Positions 16,310 through 56,687 of a DNA stretch of 64,000 nucleotides are shown here, piece by piece (the first letter of the stretch is position 1; each line of letters begins with the position of its first letter). The stretch is taken from assembly GCA_036522835.1 (NCBI GenBank), contig DATDFB010000057.1:3906-67905 (forward strand), written 5' to 3'. The translations under genes were made by a program, and so were the position numbers. The notes beneath the pieces were generated by a model. The model ran no database searches, was not told the origin of the DNA, and saw only the letters and a program-made list of their open reading frames with translations. Origin of the DNA: Thermoanaerobaculia bacterium (lineage in GTDB: Bacteria; Acidobacteriota; Thermoanaerobaculia; Gp7-AA8).

Positions 16310-16329
16310 GGCGCGTTACGCCCGCATAC

Positions 16330-16428: not shown

Positions 16429-16446
16429 GGCCGAAAGCAGGCGAGC

Positions 16447-18400: not shown

Positions 18401-18479
18401 GTGTCATTCCGAGCCGCGAAGACGGCGAAGAATCCCGTGCCTGCCGGCAGGGGGTCCCTCGCTCCGCTCGGGATGACAC
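18401..18479. repeat. REP-like palindrome, family GTGTCATYCCGAGC
   Basis: gtgtcattccgagccgcgaagacggcgaagaatccc...cctgccggcagg...gctcgggatgacac. It fills the gap between the kynB-like start and the upstream gene's stop. Confidence 0.85.
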
Positions 18480-18484
18480 GGCGG

Positions 18485-19816: not shown

Positions 19817-19925
19817 GGAAAATTAGAACGCAGAATGCGAATGCAGAATGAAGAAAACGGAGTCCGTTGGCCAAGGCGCTCCGGTTTTCTCAATTCTGCA
19901 TTCGCATTCTGCGTTCTGAATTTCC
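19813..19925. repeat. ~110-bp hairpin repeat, AGAACGCAGAATGCGAATGCAGAATG family
   Basis: ccacggaaaattagaacgcagaatgcgaatgcagaatgaagaaaacgg ... ccggttttctcaattctgcattcgcattctgcgttctgaatttcc. Near-identical arms to 16330-16428 with a larger loop. Confidence 0.9.
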
Positions 19926-19930
19926 TTGAT

Positions 19931-30456: not shown

Positions 30457-32157
30457 ATGCGCTGGAGCCAGTCCTTCATTCACACCCTGCGCGAAGTTCC
30501 GGCCGACGCGGACGTCGTCAGCCAGAGACTGATGATGCGCGCCGGCATGATCCGCAAAGTAGCCGCCGGAATTTACACCTATCTCCCCCTCGGCCTCCGT
30601 TCGATGCAGAAGCTCGAGGCCATCATCCGCGAGGAGATGAACCGCGCCGGCGCGGTGGAGCTCCTCGGGCCGACCATCCACCCGGGCGAGTTGTGGATGG
30701 AGTCGGGACGCTGGCAGCGCTACGGCAAGGAGCTCCTGCGCATCAAAGACCGCCACGAGCGCGACTTCGTCTACGGCCCCACGGCCGAGGAGGTCGTGAC
30801 CGACGCCGTGCGGAACACGCTCAACTCCTATCGACAGCTCCCGATCAACCTCTATCAGATCCAGACCAAGTTTCGCGACGAAGTGCGGCCCCGCTTCGGC
30901 CTCATGCGCGGGCGCGAGTTCACCATGAAGGACGCGTACTCCTTCCACGCCACGGCATCGTCGCTCGACGAGACGTACGAGAAGATGCGCGACGCCTACA
31001 GCGCCATCTTCCGCCGCTGCGCGCTCGACCACGTGCCGGTCGAGGCCGACACCGGCAACATCGGCGGCAGCGCCTCGCACGAGTTCATGGTGCTGGCGCA
31101 GTCGGGCGAGGACGCGGTCGTGTCGTGCCCCAACTGCCGCTACGGCGCGAACGTGGAGAAGGCCACGTCGAAGTTCTTCCTCGACGAGCCGGAGCCCGCG
31201 CCGATGGAAGCGATGGCCGAATTGCACACGCCGGGAACGCAGACGATCGACGACGTCGGCCGCTTCCTCGGCAAGCCGACCTCGCAGCTCGTCAAGACCC
31301 TCGTCTTCGACACCGACAAAGGGTGTCTGATGGTCCTCGTGCGCGGCGACCGCGAGGGGAACGAGGTCAAGATCAAGAACGTCTCCGGCGCCGAGTGGAT
31401 GGAGATGATGCCCGACGCGCGCTTCGAGGAGGCCACGGGCGGCCCGGTCGGCTATTGCGGTCCGGTCGGGACGAAGGCGGCACGCGTGATCGCCGACGTA
31501 TCGCTCAAAGGCCACGTCAACTGGATCGTCGGTGGCAATAAGAAGGACTACCACCTCGGCGGCGCGAATCCCGGCCGCGACTTCCCCGAGCCGGAGTACG
31601 CCGACGTCACGACCGTCTTCGCCGGCGATCCCTGTCCGCGCTGCGGCACGCCGCTGGAGATCAACCGCGGCATCGAGGTCGGCCATGTGTTCAAGCTCGG
31701 AACGAAGTACTCCGAGCCGATGGGCTGCACGTTCCTCGATGAGAACGGCGAGCGCAAGCCGATGATCATGGGCTGCTACGGCTTGGGCGTCGGCCGCACG
31801 GTCGCCGCCGCGGTGGAGCAGAGCCACGACGACGACGGCATCATCTGGCCGATCCCGATCGCGCCGTACACCGTCGTCGTGACCGCGCTCGGCAAAGAGG
31901 AGAGCGTGCGCGCGACGGCCGAGGAGGTCTACGCGAAGCTCCTGGCCGCCGGCGTCGACGTGCTCTTCGACGACCGCGACGAGCGCCCCGGCGTGAAGTT
32001 CAAGGACGCGGATCTGATCGGTTTTCCGCTGCGCATCGCCGTCGGCGCGAAGAGCCTGGCGAACGGCGTCATCGAGTGGAGCTGGCGCAAGGATCGCGCG
32101 AAGCAGCTCGGGCCGCCGGGCGAGGTGGTGGAGACGGTCATAACGGCCGCTCGGTAG
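30457..32157 (+). CDS. proS: Proline--tRNA ligase (bacterial type with editing domain)
   Basis: 566 aa. MRWSQSFIHTLREVPADADVVSQRLMMRAGMIRKVAAGIYTYLPLG, class II motifs FRDEVRPRFGLMRGREFTMKDAYSF and GCYGLGVGR, anticodon-binding C-terminus. The stop TAG lies inside a palindromic repeat. Confidence 0.97.
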   Translation: MRWSQSFIHTLREVPADADVVSQRLMMRAGMIRKVAAGIYTYLPLGLRSMQKLEAIIREEMNRAGAVELLGPTIHPGELWMESGRWQRYGKELLRIKDRHERDFVYGPTAEEVVTDAVRNTLNSYRQLPINLYQIQTKFRDEVRPRFGLMRGREFTMKDAYSFHATASSLDETYEKMRDAYSAIFRRCALDHVPVEADTGNIGGSASHEFMVLAQSGEDAVVSCPNCRYGANVEKATSKFFLDEPEPAPMEAMAELHTPGTQTIDDVGRFLGKPTSQLVKTLVFDTDKGCLMVLVRGDREGNEVKIKNVSGAEWMEMMPDARFEEATGGPVGYCGPVGTKAARVIADVSLKGHVNWIVGGNKKDYHLGGANPGRDFPEPEYADVTTVFAGDPCPRCGTPLEINRGIEVGHVFKLGTKYSEPMGCTFLDENGERKPMIMGCYGLGVGRTVAAAVEQSHDDDGIIWPIPIAPYTVVVTALGKEESVRATAEEVYAKLLAAGVDVLFDDRDERPGVKFKDADLIGFPLRIAVGAKSLANGVIEWSWRKDRAKQLGPPGEVVETVITAAR

Positions 32158-32209
32158 GGGCGCACGGCGTGCGCCCTCAGCGTCCGGGCGCACGCCGTGC
32201 GCCCCTACC
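32153..32209. repeat. REP-like palindrome, family GGTAGGGGCGCACGGCGTGCGCCC
   Basis: Perfect 24-bp inverted arms ggtaggggcgcacggcgtgcgccc / gggcgcacgccgtgcgcccctacc separated by 9 nt. It contains the proS stop codon. Confidence 0.9.
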
Positions 32210-37332: not shown

Positions 37333-39167
37333 TCCGCCGCACGCTGCTGCTCTTCGCCGCCAATCTCGTGCTCTTCACGCTGCTGCGGGTGGCGTTTCTC
37401 CTGGTCTTCGGCCATCGCCTGGCCGGGAACGATCTTCTGCGCGCCTTTTACCTCGGATTGAAATTCGACGCGCGGCTGGCGGCGCTGGTCGTCGCGCCGA
37501 TCGCGATTTTCGGCACGCGCCGCGCGGCGACGATCGTCTTCGCAATCTTCGAGCTCATCGTCCTCCTCTGCTACGCCATCGACTTCGGCTCGTACGCGTA
37601 CGTCCACCAGCGCGTGAACGCCAGCGAGCTGGAGTTCCTCCGCAATCCGCTGATCTCGCTGCACATGGTGTGGGAGTCGTACCACGTCGTCTGGTTCGGG
37701 CTGGGCATCCTGCTGTTCCTCGCGGCGCTCGTGTTCGCGCTGCGCGGCGGCGACGTGTCATCCCGAGCGCAGCGAGGGATCCCCCGCGACCCGCTCTGGC
37801 AGCGCATCGCCCTCATCGTCTTTCTTCTGGCGTGCATCTACGGCAAGGCCTCGCGCTACCCGCTGCGCTGGAGCGACGCCTACGTCGCACGCGATCCCTT
37901 CGCCGCGGAGCTCGCGCTCAACCCGCCGCAGTTCCTCTTCGAGACGATGCGCGAGGAGCCGGTGAAGCTCGACGAGAACCGCGTGCGGCGGCTCTACCCG
38001 GTCATGGCCGCGTATGCCGGAGTCGATCGCCCCGATCCGAAATCGCTGTCGCTGGCGCGCACGCCGAGGCTCTTTCCGCAGACCACCGGGGCGCCCAACG
38101 TCGTCGTCATCCAGCTCGAGTCCTTCGCGGCGTTCAAGAGCGGCGCGTTCGGCAACCGCGCCAACGGCTGCCCGAACGTCGACCGCCTGGCGCGCGAGGG
38201 GCTGCTCTTCACGAACTACTACTCCCCCTCGGAGAAGACCGCGCGCGCGCTCTATGCCGCCGTCTTCGGCATGGCCGACGTGAGCCCGTGGCAGGCCGCC
38301 GGCAACAACCCCATGGCGGTCGACCAGTACACGATCATCAACGCCTTCCGCGGCTACGAGAAGTATTTCTTCCTCGGCGGGAGCGCGAACTGGTCGAACA
38401 TCCGCGGGATGCTCGCGCACAATATCGACGGACTGAAGATCTTCGAGGAAGGCTCGTACAAAGCGAAGCCGGTCGACGTCTGGGGCGTGACGGACGAAGA
38501 GGTGTTCCTCACGGCGAGCGACGAGCTCTCGAAACAGCGCAAGCCATTCTTCGCGCTGATCCTGACCTCCGGCAATCACCGCCCCTACACCGTGCCGAAG
38601 GAGACGCACGGCTACGCGCGCGAGATCCTGTCGAACGAAGACCTGCGCGCGAACGGCTTCGAGTCGAACGACGAGTACAACTCCTTCCGCTACCTCGACC
38701 ACGCCGTCGGCCTCTTTTTCGAGAAGGCCGAGAAGGAGCCGTGGTTCAAGAACACCGTCTTTGTTCTCTACGGCGACCACGGCACGCGCACCGGCGCGCC
38801 CGGCGAAGCGCTCACGCTCGGCGACCTCTCGCTCATCGTCTACCACGTGCCGATGATCATCTACGCGCCCGGCTTCAACGTGCCGCCGCGCAGGATCGAC
38901 ATCGCCGCGAGCCACATGGACCTGATGCCGACGATCGCGAGCTTTTGCGGAGTGCCGTACCGCAATCAGACGCTGGGCATCGATCTCTTCGATCCGAATT
39001 CCGCCGGACACTCGGCAGCGTTCGTTTTTACAACGTTTCGCCAGCCGCCCACCCTCGGCCTGGTCGAAGGCGCGCGCTACACGATCGTAAAATCGGGGAC
39101 GAGCAACACCCTTCCGGAAGCGTTTTATGAGTTTTCTCGTTGGCTGATGCTGCACAATAAACCGTAA
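37329..39167 (+). CDS. LTA-synthase / phosphoglycerol-transferase family membrane sulfatase-fold protein
   Basis: In-frame part of track ORF 36048..39167 from MIRRTLLLFAANLVLFTLL (ATGA overlap with the LLM gene). About 5 N-terminal TM segments, then a sulfatase domain: VVVIQLESFAAF, LILTSGNHRPYTVP, VLYGDHGTR. Confidence 0.85.
   Translation: MIRRTLLLFAANLVLFTLLRVAFLLVFGHRLAGNDLLRAFYLGLKFDARLAALVVAPIAIFGTRRAATIVFAIFELIVLLCYAIDFGSYAYVHQRVNASELEFLRNPLISLHMVWESYHVVWFGLGILLFLAALVFALRGGDVSSRAQRGIPRDPLWQRIALIVFLLACIYGKASRYPLRWSDAYVARDPFAAELALNPPQFLFETMREEPVKLDENRVRRLYPVMAAYAGVDRPDPKSLSLARTPRLFPQTTGAPNVVVIQLESFAAFKSGAFGNRANGCPNVDRLAREGLLFTNYYSPSEKTARALYAAVFGMADVSPWQAAGNNPMAVDQYTIINAFRGYEKYFFLGGSANWSNIRGMLAHNIDGLKIFEEGSYKAKPVDVWGVTDEEVFLTASDELSKQRKPFFALILTSGNHRPYTVPKETHGYAREILSNEDLRANGFESNDEYNSFRYLDHAVGLFFEKAEKEPWFKNTVFVLYGDHGTRTGAPGEALTLGDLSLIVYHVPMIIYAPGFNVPPRRIDIAASHMDLMPTIASFCGVPYRNQTLGIDLFDPNSAGHSAAFVFTTFRQPPTLGLVEGARYTIVKSGTSNTLPEAFYEFSRWLMLHNKP
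37755..37785. repeat. Half copy of the GTGTCATCCCGAGC palindrome, in frame in a CDS
   Basis: gtgtcatcccgagcgcagcgagggatcccc translates as VSSRAQRGIP in a loop between TM segments of the LTA-synthase-like protein. Confidence 0.75.
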
Positions 39168-39206: not shown

Positions 39207-40460
39207 ATGCCTGAAACTGCCATCGCCGTAGGACTTCTCCTGCCGGACACATCGCGTACCGTCGCCGACGAGCACCTCGACGAGCTCGAGAAACTGATCG
39301 AGACGGCCGGCGGCAACGTCGTCGCCAAAATGCTGGCCCGCCGCCCCGCGCCCGATCCCGCCACCTTCGTCGGCAAGGGGAAGGCGGAAGAGATCAAGGT
39401 CATCGCCGAGAATCACGGCGCGCAGCTCGTGGTCTTCGACGACGACTTGAGCCCCGCGCAGGTGCGCAACCTCGAGAAGATCACGGGCGTCAAGGTCATC
39501 GACCGCAGCGGCCTCATTCTCGACATCTTCGCCGGCCGCGCGCGCAGCCGCGAGGCGCGCACGCAGGTGGAGCTGGCGCAGCTCGAGTACACGCTGCCGC
39601 GCCTCACCCGCGCCTGGACGCACCTGGAGCGGCAGGCCGGCGGCATCGGCACGCGCGGCGTCGGCGAGACGCAGATCGAGCTCGACCGCCGCATCATCCG
39701 CAACCGCATCGCCCACCTCAAAGAAGAGCTGCGCAAGATCGAGCGGACGCGCGTCACGCAGCGCAAGGCGCGCAGCAGCGCCTTCACCGTCGCGCTGGTC
39801 GGCTACACGAATGCCGGGAAGTCGACGCTCTTCAACCAGCTCACGCGCGGCGGCGCCGAGGCGGTCGACAAGCTGTTCGCCACGCTCGATGCGAAGTCGC
39901 AGCGCGCCGCGTTCGAGATGCCGCGCGAGACCGTCGTCATCGACACCGTCGGCTTCATCCGCAAGCTGCCGCACAACCTCGTGGCCTCGTTCCGCTCGAC
40001 GATGGAGGAGGCGGTCGCCGCCGACCTCGTGCTGCACGTCATCGATGTGAGCCATCCACAGTACGAAGAGCAGCGCACCGTCGCCGAGGAAGTGTTGAAA
40101 GAGCTCGGCGTGCCGGCGGAGCGGGTCATGGAGGTCTACAACAAAGTCGACCGCGCCGAGACCATGATCCGCCGCAAGGGCGCCGTCGGCGTGTCCGCGC
40201 TGACGGGGCGGAACATCGACAAGCTGGTCGATGCCATCCGGCAGCGCGAGCTCGAAGGCGGCGAGGTCGTGCAGCTCGAGATCCCGCACTCCGAGCCGAA
40301 GCTCCTGGCGGAGCTGCACGAGACCGCGGTGGTGTACGCGCAGACGGCATCCGACGACATCACGGCCGTCACGGCGTGGCTGCCGTTCGAGGTCCTGCCG
40401 CGATTCACCGAGTACCGGCGGCCCGACGTGGCCGCCGCCGCGCGCGCGACGCTCAGGTGA
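39207..40460 (+). CDS. hflX: GTPase HflX
   Basis: 417 aa. N-terminal HflX domain (FVGKGKAEEIK), GYTNAGKSTLFNQLT (G1), DTVGFIRKLPH (G3), NKVD (G4). Confidence 0.93.
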   Translation: MPETAIAVGLLLPDTSRTVADEHLDELEKLIETAGGNVVAKMLARRPAPDPATFVGKGKAEEIKVIAENHGAQLVVFDDDLSPAQVRNLEKITGVKVIDRSGLILDIFAGRARSREARTQVELAQLEYTLPRLTRAWTHLERQAGGIGTRGVGETQIELDRRIIRNRIAHLKEELRKIERTRVTQRKARSSAFTVALVGYTNAGKSTLFNQLTRGGAEAVDKLFATLDAKSQRAAFEMPRETVVIDTVGFIRKLPHNLVASFRSTMEEAVAADLVLHVIDVSHPQYEEQRTVAEEVLKELGVPAERVMEVYNKVDRAETMIRRKGAVGVSALTGRNIDKLVDAIRQRELEGGEVVQLEIPHSEPKLLAELHETAVVYAQTASDDITAVTAWLPFEVLPRFTEYRRPDVAAAARATLR

Positions 40461-41532
40461 TCGTGCGCAAGCGGTCGTTGATGACGCGCGTCCGCCCGCC
40501 GGCGTTGATGCGCAGCTCGAGACCCGGCTTGCCGTCCAGATCGGACGCGCCGAGGTACGTCCATGCCGCGCCGGCCGTGTAGGTGAAGCTCGATCCGTCG
40601 GCATCGTGGTAGATGTCGATGGCGCTTCCCACGTTGAACACGAGATCGTTGCCGGGCCGCCCATCGGTGTCGACGGCGTCGACCAGCGTCCACCCTTTCG
40701 TGCTGACGAGGTGGCTCGTCACGGTGCCGCCGGCGTCGTGAATGATGCGAACGGCCGATCCGATGTTGAGAATCAGCTCCGCGCCCGCCTTGCCGTCGAG
40801 ATCGGCGGCGCGCATGAACTTCCACGAGCTGCCGCCGTCGTAGTCCCTCGACGCGCCCGTGCCGGCGTGAACGATCCGGATTTTGGAGCCGAGATTCAGC
40901 ACCAACTCCGCGCCCGGCAGTCCGTCGAGCTCCGCCGAGGTGACCAACGCCCACGCCGGCCCGAGAGCCGGAAAATCGACGACGCTGTTGCTGCCGTCGC
41001 GGATCACGCGGAGCGTCGATCCGAGATTCACCGCCAGCTCGGCGCCCGGCTTCCCGTCGAGCTCCGCGATCGTGACGACCGTCCAGACCGGGCCGAGATT
41101 CGCAGTATCGCTCGAGGTGCCGGCCGCGTCGTGAATGATGCGGATCGTCGAGCCGAGGTTCAGCACGAGCTCCGCGCCGGCTTTGCCGTCGGTATCCACC
41201 GTGGCGATCAGCTTCCACGCCGCCGCCGCGTTGTAGTCCTGCATCTTGCCGGTCGCGTCGCGGATCACGCGGATCTTCGCGCCGAGATTGAGCACGAGCT
41301 CCAGGCCGGGTCGGCCGTCGAGATCGGCCGCGCCCGCGAAGGCCCACCCGGCGCCGGCGGCGTACGTGTTCGACGTTCCGTTCGCGCGCTGCACGCGGAT
41401 CGTGGCGCCCTCGTTGAAGACCTTCTCGGCCGCACCGTCGCCGTTCGTGTCCCAACTGCCCATCAGGATGCTGCCGGCAGCCATGGCATCCGAGGCGAGG
41501 AGAAAGAGGGTCAGGAGCCGGAGAAACCGCAT
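40453..41532 (-). CDS. Exported beta-propeller protein with about eight FG-GAP-like DxDGxxGxE repeats
   Basis: Start at MRFLRLLTLFLLASDAMAAG (complement 41530-41532). Seven full ~42-aa repeats plus one partial, e.g. DLDGRPGLELVLNLGAKIRVIRDATGKMQDYNAAAAWKLIATV. The 3' end overlaps the hflX stop by 8 nt. Confidence 0.75.
   Translation of the reverse strand: MRFLRLLTLFLLASDAMAAGSILMGSWDTNGDGAAEKVFNEGATIRVQRANGTSNTYAAGAGWAFAGAADLDGRPGLELVLNLGAKIRVIRDATGKMQDYNAAAAWKLIATVDTDGKAGAELVLNLGSTIRIIHDAAGTSSDTANLGPVWTVVTIAELDGKPGAELAVNLGSTLRVIRDGSNSVVDFPALGPAWALVTSAELDGLPGAELVLNLGSKIRIVHAGTGASRDYDGGSSWKFMRAADLDGKAGAELILNIGSAVRIIHDAGGTVTSHLVSTKGWTLVDAVDTDGRPGNDLVFNVGSAIDIYHDADGSSFTYTAGAAWTYLGASDLDGKPGLELRINAGGRTRVINDRLRTIT
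40456..41454 (-). repeat. Internal ~126-bp coding tandem repeats (propeller blades)
   Basis: The repeated peptide pattern D-[LT]-D-G-[KR]-[PA]-G-x-E-L-V-L-N-L-G-S-x-I-R-[IV]-I recurs at about 42-aa spacing through the ORF. Confidence 0.8.
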
Positions 41533-41599
41533 CGAAACTCCTGTCGTTTCGTACAGATGACGTCGCGCGCGGCCCAAACGTGATAGGAATCAGGAAGCG

Positions 41600-42088
41600 A
41601 TGAAAATCCGTCCAGCCGAGGCGAAGGACCGCCCGCGCATCCGCGAGATCCTCGTTGCCACGGCGCGATTCACGGACGACGAGATCCGCGCCGCGGTCGA
41701 GCTCGTCGACCACTACCTCGACCATCCCGCCCGCTCCGAATACCTCACCTTCGTTCTCGAGTCGCCCGAGAGCGGCCCCAGCCGCCAGGTGCAGGGCTAC
41801 GTCACTTACGGCGCTACGCCGAAGACCGAGGGCGTGTTCGATCTCTACTGGATCGCCGTCGACCCGCGGCACCAGGGGCAGGGCTTCGGACAGCTTCTTC
41901 TACGCTTCGTAGAGAACGAAGTGCGCCGGCACCGAGGCAGAATGTTGCTCATCGAGACCTCGTCGAAGGAAAGTTATTCGTCGACGTTGCGCTTTTACCA
42001 ACGCAGCGGTTACGACGAGATCTCGCGAATTAAAGACTTCTACCGCATCGAGTGCGACAAAATCGTCTTCTGTAAGAAATTCGCATGA
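41600..42088 (+). CDS. GNAT family N-acetyltransferase
   Basis: 162 aa. YWIAVDPRHQGQGFGQLLLRFVE (Q/RxxGxG acetyl-CoA motif), ...TLRFYQRSGY. Confidence 0.85.
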   Translation: MKIRPAEAKDRPRIREILVATARFTDDEIRAAVELVDHYLDHPARSEYLTFVLESPESGPSRQVQGYVTYGATPKTEGVFDLYWIAVDPRHQGQGFGQLLLRFVENEVRRHRGRMLLIETSSKESYSSTLRFYQRSGYDEISRIKDFYRIECDKIVFCKKFA

Positions 42089-42873
42089 GCCCGAACCTGA
42101 CCCTTTACGCCGCACTCGGCCTCTACGCCGCCGGCACGCTGATGGCCTTGGCGTCGCTGTTCGGGCGGCGTTTGCAGACGCCGGCGCTGGTGCTGATGCT
42201 GGCCGGGTTCGTCAGCCACACGGTCTGGATCGGGACGATTTGCGTGCGCACGCACCACCCGCCGCTCACGAACCTGCCGGAGATCGCGGCGTTCCTGTCG
42301 TGGACGGTGTTCGTCGTGGAGCTGGTGCTGCTGTTCAAGTACCGCGTGCACGCGGCGTCGTTCTTCGTCTACCCGCTCGTGCTGATGCTCCTGACCGTCT
42401 CGGCCGTCGTGCACGAGCCGTTCGCGCTGGCCGGCCCGACGGCGCAGTCGAAGCTCTTCACGACGCACATCCTCCTCTCGACGGTCGGCGTGGCCGCACT
42501 GCTCATCGGCGTCGCGTTCAATGCGCTGGCCTGGATGCAAGACCGGTCGCTCAAGTCGAAGCACCGCGGGCGGACGTGGGAGTGGATCCCGAGCCTCAAC
42601 GTCTGCAAGACGCTGAGTTACCGGGCGCTGGCCGTCGGCTTCAGCATCTACACGCTCGGGATTCTGACGGGGATTCTCTGGTCCTACCGCACGACTTCGG
42701 AGCTGCTCGACCTGCGCGTCAAGCAGGTCGGCGCGATCGTGGCGTGGGTGCTCTTCGCAACGCTCCTGCAGTCGTACGTCAGCGGCGCGTATCGCGCGCG
42801 GAGGGCCATGGTGATCTCGGCCTGCGCGCTCGTGGCGGTGCTCGTGGCCATTTTGGGGATCCGGCATGTCTGA
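42085..42873 (+). CDS. Cytochrome c assembly protein family (CcsA/HemX-like) membrane protein
   Basis: 262 aa with 7-8 TM segments. W-rich region LGILTGILWSY...VAWVLFATLLQ as in CcsA/HemX proteins that accompany hemA. ATGA overlap with the GNAT gene. Confidence 0.75.
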   Translation: MSPNLTLYAALGLYAAGTLMALASLFGRRLQTPALVLMLAGFVSHTVWIGTICVRTHHPPLTNLPEIAAFLSWTVFVVELVLLFKYRVHAASFFVYPLVLMLLTVSAVVHEPFALAGPTAQSKLFTTHILLSTVGVAALLIGVAFNALAWMQDRSLKSKHRGRTWEWIPSLNVCKTLSYRALAVGFSIYTLGILTGILWSYRTTSELLDLRVKQVGAIVAWVLFATLLQSYVSGAYRARRAMVISACALVAVLVAILGIRHV

Positions 42874-43079
42874 GCAGAACGCTCGCACTCTGCCAACGCT
42901 CGGGAGAACGACCGGGAGGCCTCCGGCGGGCGGGCACGGCCCGCAGCGTTTGTTGGCGCGCAAATCATGTTTCCTGCGAAACCCGTACGTTCGGCCGGAG
43001 GCAACCAGCGCTGCGGGCCGCGCCCGCCCGCCGGAGGCCCTTCGTCGTCCCCTGCGTTGGCAGAGTGCGAGCGTTCTGC
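42874..43079. repeat. 206-bp nested palindrome (MITE-like or structured-RNA-like) between the ccsA-like gene and hemA
   Basis: Outer arms form a perfect 26-bp inverted repeat: gcagaacgctcgcactctgccaacgc (42874-42899) / gcgttggcagagtgcgagcgttctgc (43054-43079). Inner arms 42914-42948 / 43009-43040 are about 32 bp with 1-2 mismatches. About 60-nt central region. Confidence 0.85.
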
Positions 43080-43092
43080 ACGGGAGGGCGAC

Positions 43093-44355
43093 ATGGCCCT
43101 GATCGCCATCGGCCTCAACCACCGCACTGCCCCCGTGGACGTGCGCGAGCGGCTCAGCGTGGCCGAGTCGAAGCTGCCGGAGTTGATCGCGAGCCTCACG
43201 GCCATGAGCGGCGTCGACGGCGGCGCCATCGTCTCGACCTGCAACCGCGTCGAGACCTACGTCTCCGCCTCGAGCGAAGACATCATCGAAGCGGTCGTCG
43301 ACTGGCTCGCCGAGCGCGCCGGCGCCGACCGGGCCGAGATCGAGAAGCACCTCTACATCCTTCGCCACGGCGACGTGGTCAAGCACCTCTTCCGCGTGGC
43401 CGCGGGGCTCGACTCGATGATTGTCGGCGAGCCGCAGATCCACGGCCAGGTGCGCGCGGCGTTCCTGGAGTCGCAGCGCTGCGGCGCGCTCGACGCACTG
43501 CTGATGCACGTCTTCGAGCAGACCATGCGCGTGGCCAAGAAGATCCGCACCGACACCGGCATCGGCGAGCACGCCGTCTCCGTGCCGTACGCCGCGGTGG
43601 AGCTGGCGAAGAAGATCTTCGGCGAGCTCGACGGCCTGCAGGCGCTGCTCCTCGGCGCGGGCGACATCGGCGAGCTAACGGCGGAGCACCTCGCGGGCTC
43701 GGGTGTGCGCCAGATCTTCGTGGCCAACCGCGCCTACGAGCGCGGCGTGCAGCTCGCCGAGCGCTTCGGCGGCGCGGCCATCCAGTTCAGCGCTGTCGAG
43801 CCGTACCTGGCCACGTGCGACATCGTCATCGCCTCGACCGCAGCGCCGCACTTCGTCATCGAGCGCGGCCAGGTCGCGCGCGCGCTGGAGTCGCGGAAGA
43901 TGAAGAACCTCTTCCTCATCGACCTGAGCGTGCCGCGCAACATCGACCCGGCCATCGCCAAGGTCGAGGGCGCCTATCTCTACAACATCGACGACCTCCA
44001 GCTCGTGGCCGAGTCGAACCGCGAGCTGCGCATGAAGAAGGCCCAGCAGGCGGAGGAGATCGTGGCGCGCGAGGTGGAGTCGTTCCGCCGCCGCATCGCC
44101 GCCATGGACGCGGTGCCGACGATCGTCGAGCTGCAGCAGCGCCTCGAGGAGATCCGCGCCACGGAGCTGGAACGGTGCCTCCGCCGCGTCGGCCCGATCA
44201 CCGCCGAGCAGCGCGAGGCCATCGAGATGATGACCACGCAGATGGTCAACAAGATCCTCCACTACCCGATCCTCCAGCTCAAGGAAGCCGACGAGCCGCA
44301 GGAGCAGCGCGAGTCGCTCCGCAAGACGATTCGAAAGATCTTCGGGCTGCGATGA
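43093..44355 (+). CDS. hemA: Glutamyl-tRNA reductase
   Basis: In-frame part of track ORF 42967..44355 from MALIAIGLNHRTAPVDVRERLSV. SD GGGAGGG at 43082-43088. STCNRVE catalytic Cys motif and LLGAGDIGELTAEHL NADPH site. Confidence 0.95.
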   Translation: MALIAIGLNHRTAPVDVRERLSVAESKLPELIASLTAMSGVDGGAIVSTCNRVETYVSASSEDIIEAVVDWLAERAGADRAEIEKHLYILRHGDVVKHLFRVAAGLDSMIVGEPQIHGQVRAAFLESQRCGALDALLMHVFEQTMRVAKKIRTDTGIGEHAVSVPYAAVELAKKIFGELDGLQALLLGAGDIGELTAEHLAGSGVRQIFVANRAYERGVQLAERFGGAAIQFSAVEPYLATCDIVIASTAAPHFVIERGQVARALESRKMKNLFLIDLSVPRNIDPAIAKVEGAYLYNIDDLQLVAESNRELRMKKAQQAEEIVAREVESFRRRIAAMDAVPTIVELQQRLEEIRATELERCLRRVGPITAEQREAIEMMTTQMVNKILHYPILQLKEADEPQEQRESLRKTIRKIFGLR

Positions 44356-45356
44356 GCGAGACAATCCGCATCGGCACGCGCGGCAGCCAACTCGCGCTCT
44401 GGCAAGCCAACGAAGTGTCGAACCGGCTCAGCGAAATCGGCTACCGGCCGGAGATCGCGGTCATCAAGACGACGGGCGACAAGCGCACCGACGTGCCGCT
44501 GTCGTCGGTCGGCGGCAAGGGCCTCTTCATCAAGGAGCTCGAGGAGGCGCTGGCGCGGCGCGAGATCGATGTGGCCGTGCACTCGCTCAAGGACGTGCCG
44601 TCGCTCGTCCCCGAGCCGTTCGTGCTGGCCGGCTTCCTCGAGCGCGCCGACGCCCGCGACGCCTGGGTGCAGCTCGACGGCACGCGCATCGAGGAGCTGG
44701 CTGCAGGCGCGGTCGTCGGCACGAGCGCGCCGCGGCGGCGCGCGCAACTGCGGCTGCTCTTTCCGTCGCTCACGCTCGAGGAGATGCGCGGCAACGTCGA
44801 CACGCGCATCAATAAACTGCGCGCCGGCTTGTACGACGGCGCGGTGCTGGCGTCGGCCGGACTCATTCGACTCGGCCGTTCCAGCGAGATCACCGCGCAG
44901 TTCGACGTCGACCAGATGGTGCCGGCCGCGGGGCAGGGCATCGTCACGATCGAGTGCAACAAAGACGACGATCGCGCGCGCCAGGCCGCCGCGGCGATCA
45001 ACCACCATCCCAGCGAGGCCGCGGCGCGCGCCGAGCGCGGCGTGCTGCAGAAGTTCGGCGAGGCGCTCGACTGCTACTCCGCCGTGGCCGTGCATGCGAC
45101 GTGGGCCCGTGTCATTCCGCGTCGCGAAGACGGCGAGGAGTCCCGTGCACACGACGACGGCGATGCTCCGTCGGCAGGAGATCCTTCGCCGTCTTCGCGG
45201 CTCGGGATGACACGTCTCAAGATCCGCGCGTTCTTCGGCGAGCTCGAAGGCGAGCGCCATTTGCACGTCACGCGCGAAGGCGACGAGGCCGACGCCGTCG
45301 TGCAGCAAGTCTTCGACGAGCTCGTCGACCGCGGAGCCATGGAGCTGCTCAAGTGA
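44352..45356 (+). CDS. hemC: Hydroxymethylbilane synthase (porphobilinogen deaminase) with in-frame repeat-derived insertion
   Basis: Last 335 codons of track ORF 42240..45356. ATGA overlap with hemA. IRIGTRGSQLALWQA, HSLKDVP, RGNVDTRINKL, and the cofactor Cys in EALDCYSAV. Contains a 35-codon insert, (R)VIPRREDGEESRAHDDGDAPSAGDPSPSSRLGMTR. Confidence 0.93.
   Translation: MSETIRIGTRGSQLALWQANEVSNRLSEIGYRPEIAVIKTTGDKRTDVPLSSVGGKGLFIKELEEALARREIDVAVHSLKDVPSLVPEPFVLAGFLERADARDAWVQLDGTRIEELAAGAVVGTSAPRRRAQLRLLFPSLTLEEMRGNVDTRINKLRAGLYDGAVLASAGLIRLGRSSEITAQFDVDQMVPAAGQGIVTIECNKDDDRARQAAAAINHHPSEAAARAERGVLQKFGEALDCYSAVAVHATWARVIPRREDGEESRAHDDGDAPSAGDPSPSSRLGMTRLKIRAFFGELEGERHLHVTREGDEADAVVQQVFDELVDRGAMELLK
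45109..45213. repeat. REP-like palindrome (GTGTCATTCC...GGGATGACAC), 105 bp, in frame inside hemC
   Basis: gtgtcattccgcgtcgcgaagacggcgaggagtccc ... ggagatccttcgccgtcttcgcggctcgggatgacac. About 36-bp arms, about 33-nt loop. Length 105 = 35 codons. Confidence 0.88.
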
Positions 45357-46810: not shown

Positions 46811-47062
46811 CGCCTCGTCAGCCGCAGTACGGCGGGCACTCGCCAGAGGTTGCGCAGCAGCAACAGACCGCGCAGTGAATGTGCTGATGCTCGCACGTAA
46901 ATCGTCACCGTTGTAGTGCGACTCGCACTCGCTCCGTCCCGGTCTCGTTCCAGGTGCCGAACGCGAAGGCAAAACCGGCGCGCCCGTTCAACTTCGCCAA
47001 GGACGGCCGGCGACGCATGGACACATCAGCGGCGCGGCCGCCTGCGCGGTTGGCGGTGTGGC

Positions 47063-50000
47063 ATGCCATACGAATGCCAGTCAGGCTTGGACGCCGCCGC
47101 CCTCAGCTACACTCCGCGCGTGCCGCGCGTCCTCAAAGCCTCGCTCTGGCTGGCCGCCTTCTTTTTCGCCTGCGGTATTTTCCTCGGCACGACGCAACTG
47201 CTTCGGGCCGTGCCGCCGACGCCGCACGTGGCCGTGGGGCGGGTGACGGTCGAGAACGCGTCGAAGCTGCGCGAGTACCTCACGGCGCTCCTCTTTTTCG
47301 TCCTCGTCCCGCCGCTGACGATCGGCCTCTATCGGCTCGGCTCCCGGCAGCTCGAGCGGTTTCCCGGCACCCTTCCCTCGGCACTCTTCGTCGCGCCATT
47401 TTTCCTCGCGCCGTTCCTTTATCTGACGACGTTCAAGTGGGGCTGGCCGCTCATCATCCCGCTCGCGGCGTCGCAGCTCGGCCCGCGCGCGCTGCTGCTC
47501 TTCCGGCGCACGCGCTGGCTGCGACAGCTCCTGGCGATGAAAGCGTTCAACGCCCTCATCGCCGCCGAGGCGCTGGCGTGGATCCTCTTCTTCTACATCG
47601 GCACGTGGCACCGCATCGCCCACATCGCCACGCTCTTTCTCGAGATCGTCTTCGTCGGCTTCTTCATCGCCCTCTTCTGGTGCGCCTTCGCCCTGATCGC
47701 GCGGATCGCCTCGTTCACCGGCGGCATCGACATCGAGGTCGCGTTCCAGAGAGTCGCCGCCGGCGCGCTGCCGCTGATCATCCTGCCGGCGCTCGGCCTT
47801 CGCTTCGTCCCGGCGCACATCGCCATCTCCACGGTCATGGCCGTGACGTTCGCGACGATCGCGATGGTTCTGCAAGGCAAGGAGCCGGTCGATGCGAGGC
47901 GCGTCCGCAACGTCACCGCGTACGTCATCTTCCCGCTCCTCCTCTATTGCGTCAGCTACGCCTCGACCGCGGCGCTCTCGCAGTGGATCGACCTCTTCCA
48001 CCGCGGCGAGTCGCTCGGCCCAGCCTTCGACTACCTCCGCGGCAAAGTCCCGTACCGCGACGTCTTCGTCCTGCACGGCCTGCTCGAGGACGGCCAGCTC
48101 GACGCCTGGCTCTTCCAGCTCTTCGGCCGCAATGCCGGCATCGCCCTGGCGCGGCCCGTGATCCTAGGCTCGTTCGCCGTGCCGGCGCTCTGGTACGTCG
48201 GCATGGCCATCTTCGACTCGATCCCGCTCGCGGCGCTGGTGATGCTCCTCGGGGCCGTGACAACGGTCGACAACGAGCGCGAGTTGTGGGAGATCCTCGT
48301 CCTGGCGCTGCTCCTCGGCGCGCTGCGGCGGAAATCGAAAATGCTCTATGTCCTCAGCGGCGTCGCCGCCGGCGTCACGCTCTTCTTCAGCTTCGACATC
48401 GGCCTCTACTCGATCGCCGGCGGCTTGATCGTTTGTGGAGTGCGGTGGCCACGCCACCGCTCTGACAGCGGCGGCATGGCCGCCGCACTCCAGATCTTCG
48501 GCATCGCGATCGGCACCGCACCGTTCATCGCATATCTGGCGAGCAAAGGTGCCGTTAAAGCCTTCTTCGAAACCTCCTTCGTCACGATCCCGCGAATCAT
48601 CGACGCCGTCTGGTCGCTCCCCTTTCCCGACCTCACCTCCACGTTCCGCAGCAAGAATCTCAACCTCCACACACTCTCCGACTTTTTCCTCTACGAGCAC
48701 TTCCGCTACATCCTCAATCCGCTCGTCATCTGCCTGGCCATTCTGGTGCTGCTGTGGCGGCGCAAGCGGTGGGAGTGGATCGACACCGCCCTCTTCGCGC
48801 TCACGATCTTCGCCGTCCTCACCCAGCGCAGCGCGTTGGGCCGCGCCGACTTCCCGCATCAATACTTCTCCGCGTTTCTCATCGGCCCGATGATCCTCAT
48901 CCTCCTCGTGCTTCTCGCGCGGGCGGGGCAGTGGTCGGTGGCGCTGCTCGTGCCGCTGCTCGCCGTCGTGCTGTGGGTGCCGGACATCGCCAACGGCCGC
49001 ATCGACGACACCTGCCACTACCAGGGCCGCGTCAGCGGCACCATTCGCGACCCGAAGGCGGAGGAGGTGCGCAACCGCATCGACGCCGTGCGCTACTGGG
49101 TCTGGCAGCACAGCAAGCCGAATCAGCCGATCTTCGACTTCTCGAACCAGCCGGCGCTCTACTTCTTCTGCGAGCGGCCGAATCCGACGCGCTTCTACCA
49201 GGTGCCGATCCTCTCGCCGCCGGCGCTGCAGCGCGAGACGATTCTGGCGCTCGAGCGCGCGAAGCCGCCCGTCGTCATCCGGCGCTCGCCGCAGGAGTTC
49301 GACGTCTTCGACGGCATCGACAACGCCATCCGCGCGCAGGCCGTGGCCGCGTATCTCGACGACTTCTACGTCTTCGCCCACACCACGCGCGGCGTCGAGG
49401 TGTGGGTGCGCAAGGCGCCGGCGCCGCAGCTCAATCTCGCCGGTTACATGCGCCGCTACCGCATCCCCACGCTCGAGGAGCTCGGCACGATCGGCGGGCG
49501 CTCGCGCGTCGTCTTCCCGACCGTCGGCACCGTGCCGGGCGTCGGCGGTGCGTACTGGCGCTCCGATTTGATGCTGCACAACCCGTGGAAGGAGACGATC
49601 TCGCTCGACCTCCGTTACGTCGCCGGCGACGTCCGCGCGCACCGCAACGTCATCCTAGGCGCCGGGCAGAGCATCGTCTGGCCCGACGTCGTACGCACGT
49701 TCTTCGGCGCGCCGGAGAGCCGCGGGGTGCTGTGGATCGAGTACCGCGGCACGAACGCGCCCGTCGCGCGGGTGAAGACGTCCGATGTCGCGCACGAGGC
49801 GAAGGCGACGATCGACGCGCCGCTGACGCTCGCCGGCTCCGCGACGGCCGGGACGCCGAGCGACGACCTGACGATTTTCGGCCTCCCCTCGACGAAGGAC
49901 CGGCGGATCAACATCGGCATCGTGAACGTCGGCGCGATTCCGGCCACGTTCCGCATCACGGCGCGCTCGCGCACCGGGCAGCCGATCGGCAGGCCGATCG

Positions 50001-52836: not shown

Positions 52837-53984
52837 ACGAGCGCCAGCGCGCGCTGCACCTCCTCCGCCGCATCGAGCGCGAGCAGGCGTTTGCCGCGCC
52901 GCTTCTGGCCCAGGAATCCGGCTTCGTCCGCACGCTCGTCCTCGGCGTGCTGCGCTGGCGCTCGCGTCTCGACTTCGCCGTGTCGGCACACGCGAAACGA
53001 AAAATCGACGATCAAGTCCTCGATGTCCTCCGCCTCGGCGCGTACCAACTGCTCTTCATGGACATCGCCAAGTACGCCGCCGTCGCGGAGACAGTGGAGC
53101 TCGCGCCAAAGCATGCGCGCGGCTTCGTCAACGCGATGCTGCGGCGCGTGACGGACGTCGAGCCCAAAGATCTCGCCACCCGCACCGCCCACCCCCCCTG
53201 GCTGATCGCGCGCTGGGTGCGCCACTACGGCGAGGAGCGCGCCGCGCGCATCGCCGCCGCGAATCAGGAGCTGTCGTATCCGGACGTGATCGCGAACGAG
53301 CCGCCGCCCGAGGCCACGCCGTCCGAGCTCGTCCCCGGCATGTGGAAGCTGCATGGATCCTCCGCCGACGTCGAAGGCATCGTTCTCGACGAAGGAAGCG
53401 CGGTCATCGGCGACCTCGCCGCGGCGACGTCAAACGACATTCTCGACCTCGCCGCCGCGCCGGGCGGGAAGAGCATCGTCGCGGCGCTGCGCGGGGCGCA
53501 TGTGGTGAGCAACGATGTCTCGATTGGACGGCTGCTCGGCGGGCGCATGCTATGCGCCCCTACCGGTAGGGGCGCACGGCGTGCGCCCCTCGTTGTCTCC
53601 GACGCGCGGCAACCGCCGTTCCGAAGAACGTTCGACACCGTCCTCCTCGATGCGCCGTGCAGTGCCACCGGCACGATCCGCAAGAATCCGGAGCTGAAGT
53701 GGCGTCTGCGCGAGGAGGACCTGCCGTCGTTCGCGAAACTGCAGCGCGAGATGCTGGAAAGCGCCGTGCGCCTCGCAAAACGCTACGTCGTCTACTCCAC
53801 CTGCTCTCTCGAGCCCGAAGAAAACGACGAAGTCGTGAACGGATTCGAACGGGAAGACGCGGCGGGCTTCGTCAACGATAACGTCCGCCGCTGGGTCGAA
53901 GACGGCGTGCTCCGCCTCACGCCCGAGTCGGGCGCGGACGGCTTCACCGCGTTTGTGCTAAGAATTCCGCCCCATGCCGCGTGA
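52833..53984 (+). CDS. rsmB: 16S rRNA (cytosine-C5)-methyltransferase RsmB/Sun family
   Basis: ATGA overlap with fmt. N-terminal NusB-like MNERQRALHLLRRIEREQAFA, ILDLAAAPGGKS, LLDAPCSATGTIRKNPE, YSTCSLEPEEN. Contains an in-frame palindromic repeat. Confidence 0.9.
   Translation: MNERQRALHLLRRIEREQAFAAPLLAQESGFVRTLVLGVLRWRSRLDFAVSAHAKRKIDDQVLDVLRLGAYQLLFMDIAKYAAVAETVELAPKHARGFVNAMLRRVTDVEPKDLATRTAHPPWLIARWVRHYGEERAARIAAANQELSYPDVIANEPPPEATPSELVPGMWKLHGSSADVEGIVLDEGSAVIGDLAAATSNDILDLAAAPGGKSIVAALRGAHVVSNDVSIGRLLGGRMLCAPTGRGARRAPLVVSDARQPPFRRTFDTVLLDAPCSATGTIRKNPELKWRLREEDLPSFAKLQREMLESAVRLAKRYVVYSTCSLEPEENDEVVNGFEREDAAGFVNDNVRRWVEDGVLRLTPESGADGFTAFVLRIPPHAA
53541..53589. repeat. REP-like palindrome (GGGCGCA...TACCGGTAGGGGCGCACGGCGTGCGCCC) in frame inside rsmB
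   Basis: gggcgcatgctatgcgcccctaccggtaggggcgcacggcgtgcgcccc translates as GRMLCAPTGRGARRAP within the methyltransferase domain. Confidence 0.85.
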
Positions 53985-56067: not shown

Positions 56068-56373
56068 ATGGCAGGAAAAGGTGACGTCATCAACGAGATC
56101 GCCGACCAGGCTGGGATCTCGAAGAAGGAAGCGGCCGCAGCGTTCGACGCATTCGTCAGCTACATCTCCGGCTCGTGCCAGCGAGGCGAGCGCTGCTCGA
56201 TCCCAGGGCTCGGCAGCTTCTCCGTCTCGCAGCGCAAGGCGCGCGAGGGCCGCAACCCCCGCACGAACGAAAAGATCACCATCCCGGCATCGAAGAACGT
56301 CCGCTTCAAGGCCGGCAAGGACCTCAAGGACGCCGTAAACGTTTCCGGTAAGCGGGGGTCGAAGAAGAAGTAG
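56068..56373 (+). CDS. hup: HU/IHF family nucleoid-associated DNA-binding protein with Lys-rich tail
   Basis: 101 aa. Strong SD AGGAGG (56053-56058). ISKKEAAAAFDAF, IPGLGSFSVSQRKAREGRNPRTNEKITIPASKNVRFKAGKDLK, C-terminal GKRGSKKK. Confidence 0.92.
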   Translation: MAGKGDVINEIADQAGISKKEAAAAFDAFVSYISGSCQRGERCSIPGLGSFSVSQRKAREGRNPRTNEKITIPASKNVRFKAGKDLKDAVNVSGKRGSKKK

Positions 56374-56470: not shown

Positions 56471-56687
56471 CCGATCGAAGAGCGCACGCTTCCGATCGAA
56501 GAACGAACGCTTCAATCGGAATCGTGCGCTCTTCGATTTTAATCGTACGCTCTTCGATCTTTATCGCGCGCTCTTCGATCTTTATCGCGCGCTCTTCGAT
56601 CGGAATCGCGCGCTCTTCGATCGGAATGGCGCACTCTTCGATCGGAATCGTGCGTTCTTCGGTTGCAAGCGTGCGTTCTTCGAAAAC
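56471..56687. repeat. Array of ten 21-bp units (2 inverted + 8 direct), consensus AATCGCGCGCTCTTCGATCGG
   Basis: Direct units start at 56520, 56541, 56562, 56583, 56604, 56625, 56646 and 56667. Inverted units are at 56471-56491 and 56492-56512 (ccgatcgaagagcgcacgctt is the exact reverse complement of aagcgtgcgctcttcgatcgg). The array is flanked by GTTGTTAGG / CCTAAGAAC-type inverted sequences at 56437-56470 and 56688-56716. Confidence 0.9.

What the first reader, a model, noticed from the sequence alone, without database searches (positions are those of the whole stretch)
42874..43079. 206-bp two-tier palindrome inserted between the ccsA-like gene and the hemA Shine-Dalgarno
A perfect 26-bp outer inverted repeat (42874-42899 / 43054-43079) encloses a second, about 32-bp GC-rich inverted repeat (42914-42948 / 43009-43040) and a ~60-nt core. 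It starts 1 nt after the ccsA-like stop and ends 2 nt before the hemA SD (GGGAGGG 43082-43088). The flanking genes otherwise form a chain of 4-nt overlaps (GNAT-ccsA, hemA-hemC-cobA/hemD). The element therefore interrupts what looks like one operon. It would fold into a very stable structure right next to the ribosome-binding site of the first committed tetrapyrrole enzyme. It could be a MITE, a processing or stability element, or a regulatory RNA.
Basis: seen in the sequence. Interest (0 to 1): 0.5.

Follow-up and report, generated by a model that had tools for sequence, protein, structure and literature searches.

The report
Mobile palindromic repeat upstream of hemA
The 206-bp palindrome is real, but it is one copy of a scattered family of hairpin-forming, probably mobile DNA repeats that landed between two haem-operon genes in a few closely related soil bacteria, not a conserved hemA control element.

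Summary
There is a perfect 26-bp outer inverted repeat, a 38-nt inner inverted repeat (92% complementary) and a 46-nt loop. The RNA fold is -181 kcal/mol (z = -12.9). The element fills the gap from the stop of the ccsA-like gene to 2 nt before the hemA Shine-Dalgarno.

The host is an uncultured soil Thermoanaerobaculia (Acidobacteriota). Four relatives have empty sites there: a 9-15 nt spacer or an 8-nt gene overlap. Only one small clade (window, L004, L027) carries the element. A sister lineage (L006) and a more distant one (L013) carry unrelated hairpins at the same junction.

Related copies lie at other loci. The 141-nt inner module occurs alone between convergent genes in L018. Translated copies with foreign flanks are P0241 and P0243 (both tiers) and P0245 (inner only). 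I found no target-site duplication, Rfam match, promoter or covariation.

In L027 the element sits at the identical site but inverted. The inner stems vary about ten times less than 4-fold degenerate sites. This is unexplained.

Best reading: a MITE/REPIN-like palindromic repeat that was tolerated because it spared the stop codon and the ribosome-binding site. Any effect on hemA is inferred. It is a new member of a known kind, of moderate interest.

The parts
42874..43079 (.). Whole two-tier palindromic element (206 nt).
   Evidence: It is absent from the empty sites in L008, L009, L012 and L029, and present in L001, L004 and L027/L028.
42874..42899 (+). Outer arm next to the ccsA-like gene (26 nt).
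   Evidence: It is a perfect complement of 43054-43079. It varies at 9 of 26 sites among window, L004 and L027.
43054..43079 (+). Outer arm next to hemA (26 nt).
   Evidence: Only 1 of 26 sites varies among the three lineages, whatever the orientation of the interior.
42909..43049 (.). Inner hairpin module (141 nt), which also occurs on its own elsewhere.
   Evidence: It is 81.6% identical over 141 nt to L018 873-1013 (E = 3e-35; alignment). The translated copies P0242 and P0245 cover only this part.
42918..42955 (+). Left arm of the inner stem.
   Evidence: 38 nt, 92%. Most pairs (cols 45-71) are invariant in window, L004, L027 and L018.
43002..43039 (+). Right arm of the inner stem.
42956..43001 (.). 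Asymmetric loop or core, which defines the orientation of the element.
   Evidence: 8 of 46 sites vary. It is read in reverse complement in L027.
42926..42954 (+). Terminator-like half-unit: GCGGGC, a 7-nt loop, GCCCGC, then AGCGTTTGTT.
   Evidence: This is a consensus scan hit on the sense strand. The same unit is antisense in L027. It is a weak match and its function is not shown.
42085..42873 (+). Upstream gene: a Cytochrom_C_asm (ccsA/ccsB-like) membrane protein, with its TGA stop at 42871-42873.
   Evidence: Pfam PF01578 with E = 5.7e-15. The TIGR03144 hit is below its cut-off.
43082..43088 (+). hemA Shine-Dalgarno GGGAGGG, left intact by the insertion.
   Evidence: The same ACGGGAG / TCGGGAG motif directly follows the stop codon in the empty sites of L009 and L029.
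43093..44355 (+). hemA (glutamyl-tRNA reductase).
   Evidence: Pfam GlutR_N, Shikimate_DH and GlutR_dimer.

Best explanation
The element is one copy of a dispersed family of non-coding palindromic repeats of the MITE/REPIN kind in uncultured soil bacteria. It has two tiers. A 141-nt hairpin module, which also occurs alone at other loci, is enclosed by 26-bp outer inverted repeats.

Shown: it entered the junction between the ccsA-like stop codon and the hemA ribosome-binding site in the ancestor of three closely related Thermoanaerobaculia lineages, without a target-site duplication. The interior, or the whole element, later inverted in one of these lineages. The site is an insertion-tolerant gap. 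Unrelated hairpin elements occupy it in two other lineages, and other junctions of the same gene cluster also carry lineage-specific hairpins.

Inferred: the element persisted because it left both the stop codon and the Shine-Dalgarno intact. No promoter is detectable, so hemA is probably still read from the upstream transcript and the element is transcribed. Its RNA would form a roughly 95-bp hairpin. That hairpin replaces the ancestral translational coupling of ccsA-like and hemA. It could also act as an RNase III substrate, a 3' exonuclease barrier or a partial terminator, and so change the ratio of upstream to downstream products.
For: Insertion, not ancestral leader:
- Empty sites have 9 nt (L008), 15 nt (L009, L029) or an 8-nt overlap (L012), with the same [A/T]CGGGAG motif right after the stop.
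- The hemA tree is (L029 empty,(L006 other element,(L027,(L004,window)))).

Family at other loci:
- L018 873-1013 is 81.6% identical over 141 nt and lies between convergent genes.
- P0241 shares 82% amino-acid identity over 57 residues and also carries the right outer arm in another frame. Its flanks are foreign.
- P0243 carries both tiers and P0245 carries the inner module.

Flip: L027 1299-1504 aligns without gaps to the reverse complement of the window element, with 18 differences against 86 in the same sense.

Not a regulator:
- No Rfam hit.
- No sigma-70-like promoter.
- The covariation term is +1.19 and the inner-stem pairs are nearly all invariant.

Genome habit:
- A second palindromic family has an in-frame copy in hemC and copies at 18401-18480 and 2324-2403.
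- GTAG-headed REP doublets are present.
- Relatives carry hairpins at other junctions.

The definition of bacterial MITEs, and their effects through RNA hairpins, come from PMC3733652, PMC10969869 and PMC2649163.
Against: - Copy number looks low. There is one copy in 64 kb. The outer-arm 20-mer occurs only at the hemA locus in the one representative MAG that carries the element.
- There is no target-site duplication, and no partner transposase or autonomous element was found.
- DNA is available for only one foreign copy. The others are known only as translated ORFs.
- The inner stems (3 of 95 variable sites) and the hemA-proximal arm (1 of 26) evolve far more slowly than 4-fold sites (113 of 371). 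Plain selfish DNA decaying in place would not do this.
- All effects on expression are inferred. No transcript data were available.
Confidence: 0.7

Rival explanations
1. It is a domesticated cis-acting hairpin. The element began as a repeat but is now kept by selection. It would act as a processing, stability or attenuation signal that sets the expression ratio between the ccsA/hemX-like gene and hemA-hemC-cobA/hemD.
For: The inner stems vary at 3 of 95 sites and the hemA-proximal arm at 1 of 26, against 0.305 at 4-fold sites (P = 1e-11 and 1e-3). The flanking coding DNA diverges normally right up to the element. Unrelated long hairpins occupy the same junction in L006 (156 nt) and L013 (96 nt, -82.9 kcal/mol).
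Against: It is absent from L029, L008, L009 and L012, which keep the genes coupled. The orientation differs between lineages. No compensatory changes are seen. The same stems are equally conserved in L018, at an unrelated locus, so the conservation is a property of the family and not of hemA. Other junctions also gain hairpins. The changes in the ccsA-proximal arm are clustered, so they may be one or two events, and the asymmetry between the arms is statistically fragile.
Confidence: 0.18
2. It is an invertible DNA switch (inverton). The 154-bp segment between the perfect 26-bp inverted repeats would flip and change read-through into hemA, for example by placing the terminator-like half-unit on the sense or the antisense strand.
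For: Both orientations exist at the identical site in close relatives. The inverted repeats are perfect in the window. The terminator-like unit is sense in window and L004 and antisense in L027.
Against: Orientation is constant within each lineage across independent samples: window type in four samples, L004 type in two and L027 type in two. There is no promoter in either orientation. No recombinase was found among ten window ORFs scanned. The interior is itself nearly palindromic, so a flip changes little. One rare recombination between 26-bp repeats would explain the data.
Confidence: 0.05
3. It is a transcription terminator module. Each half is a small GC hairpin followed by a T-rich run facing inwards, so it would act in both directions. 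Here it would partly terminate GNAT-ccsA transcripts before hemA.
For: There is a terminator-like hit at 42926-42944 plus AGCGTTTGTT. The L018 copy lies between convergent genes, where a two-way terminator would be expected.
Against: The whole hairpin is followed by ACGGGAGG with no U-tract. The half-unit has only 5 T in 8 and fails the scan in L018. hemA has no detectable promoter of its own, so efficient termination would silence an essential pathway. The motif is antisense in L027.
Confidence: 0.06
4. It encodes a small protein: the 78-codon ORF 42866-43102, which overlaps both the ccsA stop and the hemA start.
For: The ORF is open and would keep the chain of overlapping genes.
Against: Five of the six frames are fully open across the palindrome and the sixth has a single stop, as expected at this GC content. 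There is no Pfam hit. The L027 counterpart is only 45% identical and has gaps, whereas HemA is 93% identical. The family copies change frame.
Confidence: 0.01

Closest known systems
Bacterial MITEs such as the Neisseria Correia/NEMIS elements, ERIC and RUP
   Same: The size falls in the 70-300 bp range and the terminal inverted repeats in the 15-30 bp range. The element has no coding capacity, sits right next to coding sequences and is co-transcribed. It folds into a robust hairpin that could stabilise or destabilise mRNA or be cut by RNase III (PMC3733652, PMC2649163, PMC10969869).
   Different: There is no target-site duplication and no known parent insertion sequence. Few copies were detected. 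Nearly the whole element is self-complementary, not only its termini. No promoter or IHF site was identified.
REPINs / REP doublets mobilised by RAYT transposases
   Same: Two inverted units are separated by a spacer and form a long hairpin. There is no target-site duplication. The arms are much better conserved than the spacer. The location is intergenic, just downstream of a gene (PMC3116915, PMC3337134).
   Different: It has no GTAG (or paired CGTC) head, it is much longer than a REP doublet, and it is not abundant. A genuine GTAG-REP family exists separately in the same window. Association with a RAYT could not be tested.
Nested or clustered small repeats of Streptococcus pneumoniae (BOX, RUP, SPRITE)
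   Same: Small repeats insert into one another, and SPRITE carries terminator-like hairpins (PMC10969869). That resembles the inner module inside the outer arms and its terminator-like halves.
   Different: The phylum is different and the sequences are unrelated. Nesting here is inferred only from the inner module occurring alone (L018, P0245).
Invertons (invertible promoter switches)
   Same: A short segment bounded by inverted repeats lies directly upstream of a gene and is found in both orientations.
   Different: There is no promoter inside, no recombinase nearby and no mixture of orientations within a lineage. The comparison rests on my own knowledge of invertons and not on a paper read here.

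Membership tests
Bacterial MITE | Small (70-300 bp) and non-coding | tested here: met
   The element is 206 nt. The ORFs across it are not conserved.
Bacterial MITE | Terminal inverted repeats of about 15-30 bp | tested here: met
   It has 26-bp perfect terminal inverted repeats.
Bacterial MITE | Target-site duplication flanking the insertion | tested here: not met
   The filled sites read TGA|element|ACGGGAG (window) and TAA|element|TCGGGAG (L027). The empty sites read TGA-A-ACGGGAG (L009) and TAA-C-TCGGGAG (L029). No duplicated bases are present.
Bacterial MITE | Several dispersed copies at unrelated loci | tested here: met
   L018 gives a DNA copy and P0241, P0243 and P0245 are translated copies with foreign flanks. 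Only a handful of copies were seen, and none is identical.
Bacterial MITE | A related autonomous element or transposase with the same ends | tested here: inconclusive
   The outer-arm 20-mer occurs in no other place in 185,579 representative genomes. Diverged ends would be missed.
REPIN / REP doublet | GTAG (or CGTC) tetranucleotide head on each unit | tested here: not met
   The 206 nt contain no GTAG or CTAC. CGTC occurs only on the right side, at 43043-43049. The criteria come from PMC3733652.
REPIN / REP doublet | Two inverted short palindromic units separated by a spacer | tested here: inconclusive
   Each inner arm holds a small hairpin, GCGGGC-7 nt-GCCCGC. The arms are 47 nt long, far more than a REP.
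REPIN / REP doublet | Tens to hundreds of copies per genome and a cognate RAYT gene | not testable with these tools
   Only 64 kb of the host genome and short loci were available. One copy was seen per 64 kb.
Conserved cis-regulatory RNA leader of hemA | Present in orthologous leaders of related genomes | tested here: not met
   It is absent from L029, L008, L009 and L012, and replaced by unrelated sequence in L006 and L013.
Conserved cis-regulatory RNA leader of hemA | Compensatory base changes or a match to a curated RNA family | tested here: not met
   The covariation term is +1.19 and the inner-stem pairs are nearly all invariant. There is no Rfam match.
Inverton | Both orientations present within one population | not testable with these tools
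   Only assembled contigs were available. Orientation is fixed within each lineage across samples.
Inverton | A promoter inside the invertible segment | tested here: not met
   No sigma-70-like site was found on either strand in either orientation.
Intrinsic terminator | GC-rich stem directly followed by a U-tract | tested here: not met
   The full hairpin is followed by ACGGGAGG. Only a weak internal half-unit matches.
Integron attC site | RYYYAAC / GTTRRRY boxes, an unpaired central spacer and extrahelical bases, within a cassette array | tested here: not met
   The ends GCAGAAC / GTTCTGC match 5 of 7 positions. However, the outer stem is a perfect 26-bp duplex with no spacer or bulges. The neighbours are core syntenic genes, and the element occurs in both orientations. 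The criteria are from my own knowledge.

The most novel reading that the evidence does not exclude
The hairpin is not just tolerated but selected. The clade would keep a long hairpin at the ccsA/hemX-like to hemA boundary as operon punctuation, recruiting whichever palindromic repeat is at hand. That would explain three unrelated hairpins at one junction. Sequence-level constraint on the inner stems and the hemA-proximal arm would reflect binding by a protein or nuclease. Inversion of the element would change read-through into hemA.
Probability: 0.12. Interest if true: 0.6.

Novelty: new member of a known kind. Interest (0 to 1): 0.35.

Why it matters
The result shows that a striking structure next to the first committed tetrapyrrole gene is not a haem or iron sensor. 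It is a repeat element in a poorly studied phylum.

The locus is a clean natural series. Close relatives show it empty, filled, flipped, or filled by a different element. This series could be used to measure what a long intra-operon hairpin does to translational coupling and mRNA fate. It could also be used to ask why the stems of such repeats stay almost unchanged while neighbouring synonymous sites diverge by 20-30%.

More broadly, these Thermoanaerobaculia genomes carry many palindromic repeat families, one of which is inserted in frame inside hemC.

Tried and rejected
- Rfam search of the region at E up to 10, and of the whole window at gathering score, gave only sub-threshold microRNA-like hairpin hits and nothing else.
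- The outer-arm 20-mer in representative genomes hit only the orthologous hemA locus, plus a Streptomyces coding sequence that has no palindrome.
- The same 20-mer in the metagenome collection hit two homologues of the Streptomyces gene and one unrelated site. It also hit L017, a 20-nt match at the very end of a 1.5-kb contig.
- That collection did not return the JGI contigs of L001 or L027, which do contain the 20-mer. The negative result therefore has no power.
- L017 was followed through its histidine kinase. It is Myxococcales-like and no longer contig exists, so this was a dead end and cost one protein search.
- Scans of viral contigs with inner-arm patterns gave nothing, or single chance hits.
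- The plasmid and phage collections gave no match.
- DNA for P0241 and P0243 is not retrievable.
- RNA-level selection in the outer stem looked suggestive in L004, with three wobble-compatible changes and one compensatory pair. It disappeared when L027 was added, leaving about half of the changes compatible.
- Sigma-54-like and ECF-like motifs in the hemA-proximal arm were examined by eye and were poor matches.
- A Pfam scan of ten window ORFs found no transposase or recombinase.

Full report
**Observation.** The palindrome is real and far beyond chance.
- The 26-nt arms 42874-42899 and 43054-43079 are perfectly complementary. They occur nowhere else in the window, and shuffles expect 0 matches.
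- The inner repeat is 38 nt at 92% (42918-42955 / 43002-43039), with 46 nt between the arms.
- As RNA, 42860-43100 folds at -181.1 kcal/mol (z = -12.9). The opposite strand folds almost as well, at -177.7.
- The element starts at the base after the TGA of a Cytochrom_C_asm (ccsA/ccsB-like) gene. It ends 2 nt before GGGAGGG, which lies 4 nt upstream of the hemA ATG at 43093.
- The neighbouring genes GNAT/ccsA-like, hemA/hemC and hemC/cobA-hemD overlap by 4 nt each.

**Host.** The HemA protein is identical to one from a "MAG TPA: Thermoanaerobaculia bacterium", and all close relatives come from soil metagenomes. The same element, base for base, is in a JGI contig (L001). Three other assemblies break inside it (L002, L003, L005).

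**It is an insertion, not a conserved leader.** I fetched the same gene cluster from relatives ranked by HemA identity. The state of the junction in each is:

| Locus | HemA identity to window | State of the ccsA-like / hemA junction |
|---|---|---|
| L012 | 87% | 8-nt overlap, ATGCTTAG |
| L008 | 88% | 9-nt spacer |
| L009 | 87% | 15-nt spacer, TGA-AACGGGAGTCGCGAC-ATG |
| L029 | 93% | 15-nt spacer, TAA-CTCGGGAGCGGCGAC-ATG |
| L013 | 85% | 96-nt hairpin built of (GTGCCC)n / (GGGCAC)n |
| L006 | 93% | unrelated 156-nt element of the GGGGAGAAGG / CCCTCTCCCC type |
| window, L004, L027/L028 | 100%, 95%, 93% | the 206-nt element (219-nt spacer) |

A neighbour-joining tree on hemA gives (L029,(L006,(L027,(L004,window)))), so a single gain at the base of a small clade is the simplest history. 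Filled and empty sites differ by the element alone. The stop codon and the [A/T]CGGGAG ribosome-binding motif sit on either side, and no bases are duplicated.

**It belongs to a dispersed family.** DNA scans with the outer-arm 20-mer found no second locus. The metagenome collection lacks the relevant samples, because it did not return L001 or L027 themselves. I therefore translated the element in three frames and searched the protein databases for ORFs that had been mis-called across other copies.
- Four proteins carry recognisable copies with foreign flanks: P0241, P0242, P0243 and P0245.
- P0241 shares 82% identity over 57 residues, and has the right outer arm in a shifted frame. P0243 also carries both tiers. 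P0242 and P0245 carry only the inner module.
- The DNA behind P0242 (L018) shows a 141-nt hairpin between convergent genes. It is 81.6% identical to window 42909-43049 (E = 3e-35) and folds at -130.7 kcal/mol.
- The "two tiers" are therefore a hairpin module that can exist alone, enclosed in a subfamily by 26-bp outer repeats.
- The copies seen are few and diverged. This method sees only copies that a gene caller happened to translate.

**It is flipped in one lineage.** L027 and L028 are two independent assemblies. In both, the element occupies exactly the same site, but it aligns without gaps to the reverse complement of the window copy. There are 18 differences in 206 that way, against 86 in the same sense. 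Orientation is constant within each lineage across samples. One rare recombination between the 26-bp arms, or an excision and re-insertion, is enough to explain this.

**Rates.** Among window, L004 and L027, 113 of 371 four-fold degenerate sites in the flanking genes vary (0.305).

| Region | Variable sites | P versus the 4-fold rate |
|---|---|---|
| Inner stems | 3 of 95 | 1e-11 |
| hemA-proximal outer arm | 1 of 26 | 1e-3 |
| Loop | 8 of 46 | 0.034 |
| ccsA-proximal outer arm | 9 of 26 | 0.75 |

- Coding DNA on both sides diverges normally right up to the element, so a recent recombination tract is not the cause.
- There is no covariation. Nearly all inner-stem pairs are simply invariant, and they are also invariant in L018 at an unrelated locus.
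- That points to a property of the family rather than a hemA-specific function. Candidates are sequence recognition by a mobilising enzyme, conversion between arms or between copies, or GC-biased repair in the hairpin. I could not decide among these.
- The changes in the ccsA-proximal arm are clustered and may be one or two multi-base events, so the asymmetry between the arms should not be over-read.

**Signals.**
- There is no Rfam family at any threshold worth noting.
- There is no sigma-70-like promoter in either orientation.
- The full hairpin has no U-tract after it.
- One weak terminator-like half-unit (GCGGGC-7-GCCCGC followed by GCGTTTGTT) is on the sense strand in window and L004 and on the antisense strand in L027. 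It fails the scan in L018.
- The 78-codon ORF across the element is not a gene. Five of the six frames are fully open and the sixth has one stop, there is no Pfam hit, and the L027 version is only 45% identical with gaps.

**Genome habit.** The window is rich in palindromic repeats.
- A family with arms GTGTCATYCYGAG... has copies at 2324-2403 and 18401-18480. A 34-codon in-frame copy lies inside hemC and is absent from every relative.
- GTAG-headed REP doublets are present.
- Hairpins made of mirrored short tandem repeats occur.
- In relatives, other non-overlapping junctions of this gene cluster also carry lineage-specific hairpins.
- The hemA junction is therefore one of several permissive gaps, not a special one.

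**How it most likely works.**
- Shown: it is a lineage-specific insertion of a family member, with no duplication, sparing the stop codon and the ribosome-binding site, and later inverted.
- Inferred: mobilisation in trans by an unidentified enzyme.
- Inferred: co-transcription with the operon, because no promoter is detectable.
- Inferred: formation of a roughly 95-bp RNA hairpin, loss of the ancestral translational coupling, and possible RNase III cleavage, exonuclease blocking or partial termination. These effects are documented for Correia, ERIC and REP elements (PMC2649163, PMC3733652, PMC10969869).

**Comparison with known systems.** It works like a bacterial MITE or REPIN.
- As a MITE it meets the criteria for size, terminal repeats, lack of coding capacity and dispersed copies. 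It fails on target-site duplication, and no parent element was found.
- As a REPIN it lacks the GTAG or CGTC head, and abundance could not be shown.
- It fails the tests for a conserved riboswitch-like leader, an inverton with a promoter, an intrinsic terminator and an attC site.

**Verdict.** It is a new member (family) of a known kind of element, in an under-studied phylum. Interest is moderate. The open point is the strong conservation of the stems.

Noticed in passing
window 45102-45216 (inside hemC, 44352-45356): hemC carries a 34-codon in-frame palindromic insertion (46-nt arms, -75 kcal/mol) that is absent from every relative. HemC is 334 aa here and 300 aa elsewhere. This resembles the in-frame Rickettsia palindromic elements.
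   Followed up: partly
window 2324-2403, 18401-18480, partial at 37752-37768: These are further copies of the repeat inserted in hemC (arms GTGTCATYCYGAG...CTCGGRATGACAC). All lie between genes, so this is a genuine multi-copy MITE-like family in the genome.
   Followed up: partly
window 24619, 32153-32209, 53541-53588: GTAG-headed REP units (GTAGGGGCGCACGGCGTGCGCCC) occur singly and as inverted doublets. One doublet exactly fills the gap between two tandem genes. These are classical REP/REPIN-type repeats, which implies a RAYT somewhere in the genome.
   Followed up: partly
window 4723-4804, 16329-16429, 19814-19928; L013 2405-2500; L009 6110-6191: These hairpins have arms made of short tandem repeats mirrored on the other side: (GAATGCA)n, (GTGCCC)n and (TTAGGGG)n. 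16329-16429 and 19814-19928 are two copies of one family. The origin of this architecture is unexplained.
   Followed up: no
window 56471-56661: Just downstream of an HU gene (56068-56373) there is an array of about 21-nt units (CCGATCGAAGAGCGCACGCTTC) in alternating orientation, between convergent genes.
   Followed up: no
window 40386-41596: A 1.2-kb window-specific insertion lies between hflX and the GNAT gene. It carries a minus-strand PA5033-family gene (NF052506, E = 3e-105) with internal repeats of about 130 nt. All relatives have only 7-130 nt here.
   Followed up: partly
window 46811-47113: About 300 nt of window-specific, non-palindromic intergenic DNA lie downstream of cobA/hemD. 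L004 has 4 nt at this position.
   Followed up: no
L006 2345-2500: The closest relative of L027 carries a completely different 156-nt element at the ccsA/hemA junction, made of CCTTCTCCCCGC...GCGGGGAGAAGG-type hairpins. A similar motif is in the window at 8891-8934. This implies replacement of one repeat by another at one site.
   Followed up: partly
L008 992-1098; L006 6113-6228: Lineage-specific hairpins (46-nt and 21-nt arms) occupy other junctions of the same gene cluster: hflX/GNAT, and cobA-hemD/next gene.
   Followed up: no
L017 1-21: A Myxococcales-like contig begins with an exact 20-nt copy of the outer arm, about 180 nt upstream of a histidine kinase gene. It could be a chance match or a truncated copy in another phylum, and it could not be extended.
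   Followed up: yes
L002 1, L003 1, L005 1 (window 42935, 42973, 43010): Three independent assemblies end inside the element. The cause could be a coverage drop in the GC-rich hairpin, a repeat-induced break, or mixed orientation. It was not resolved.
   Followed up: no
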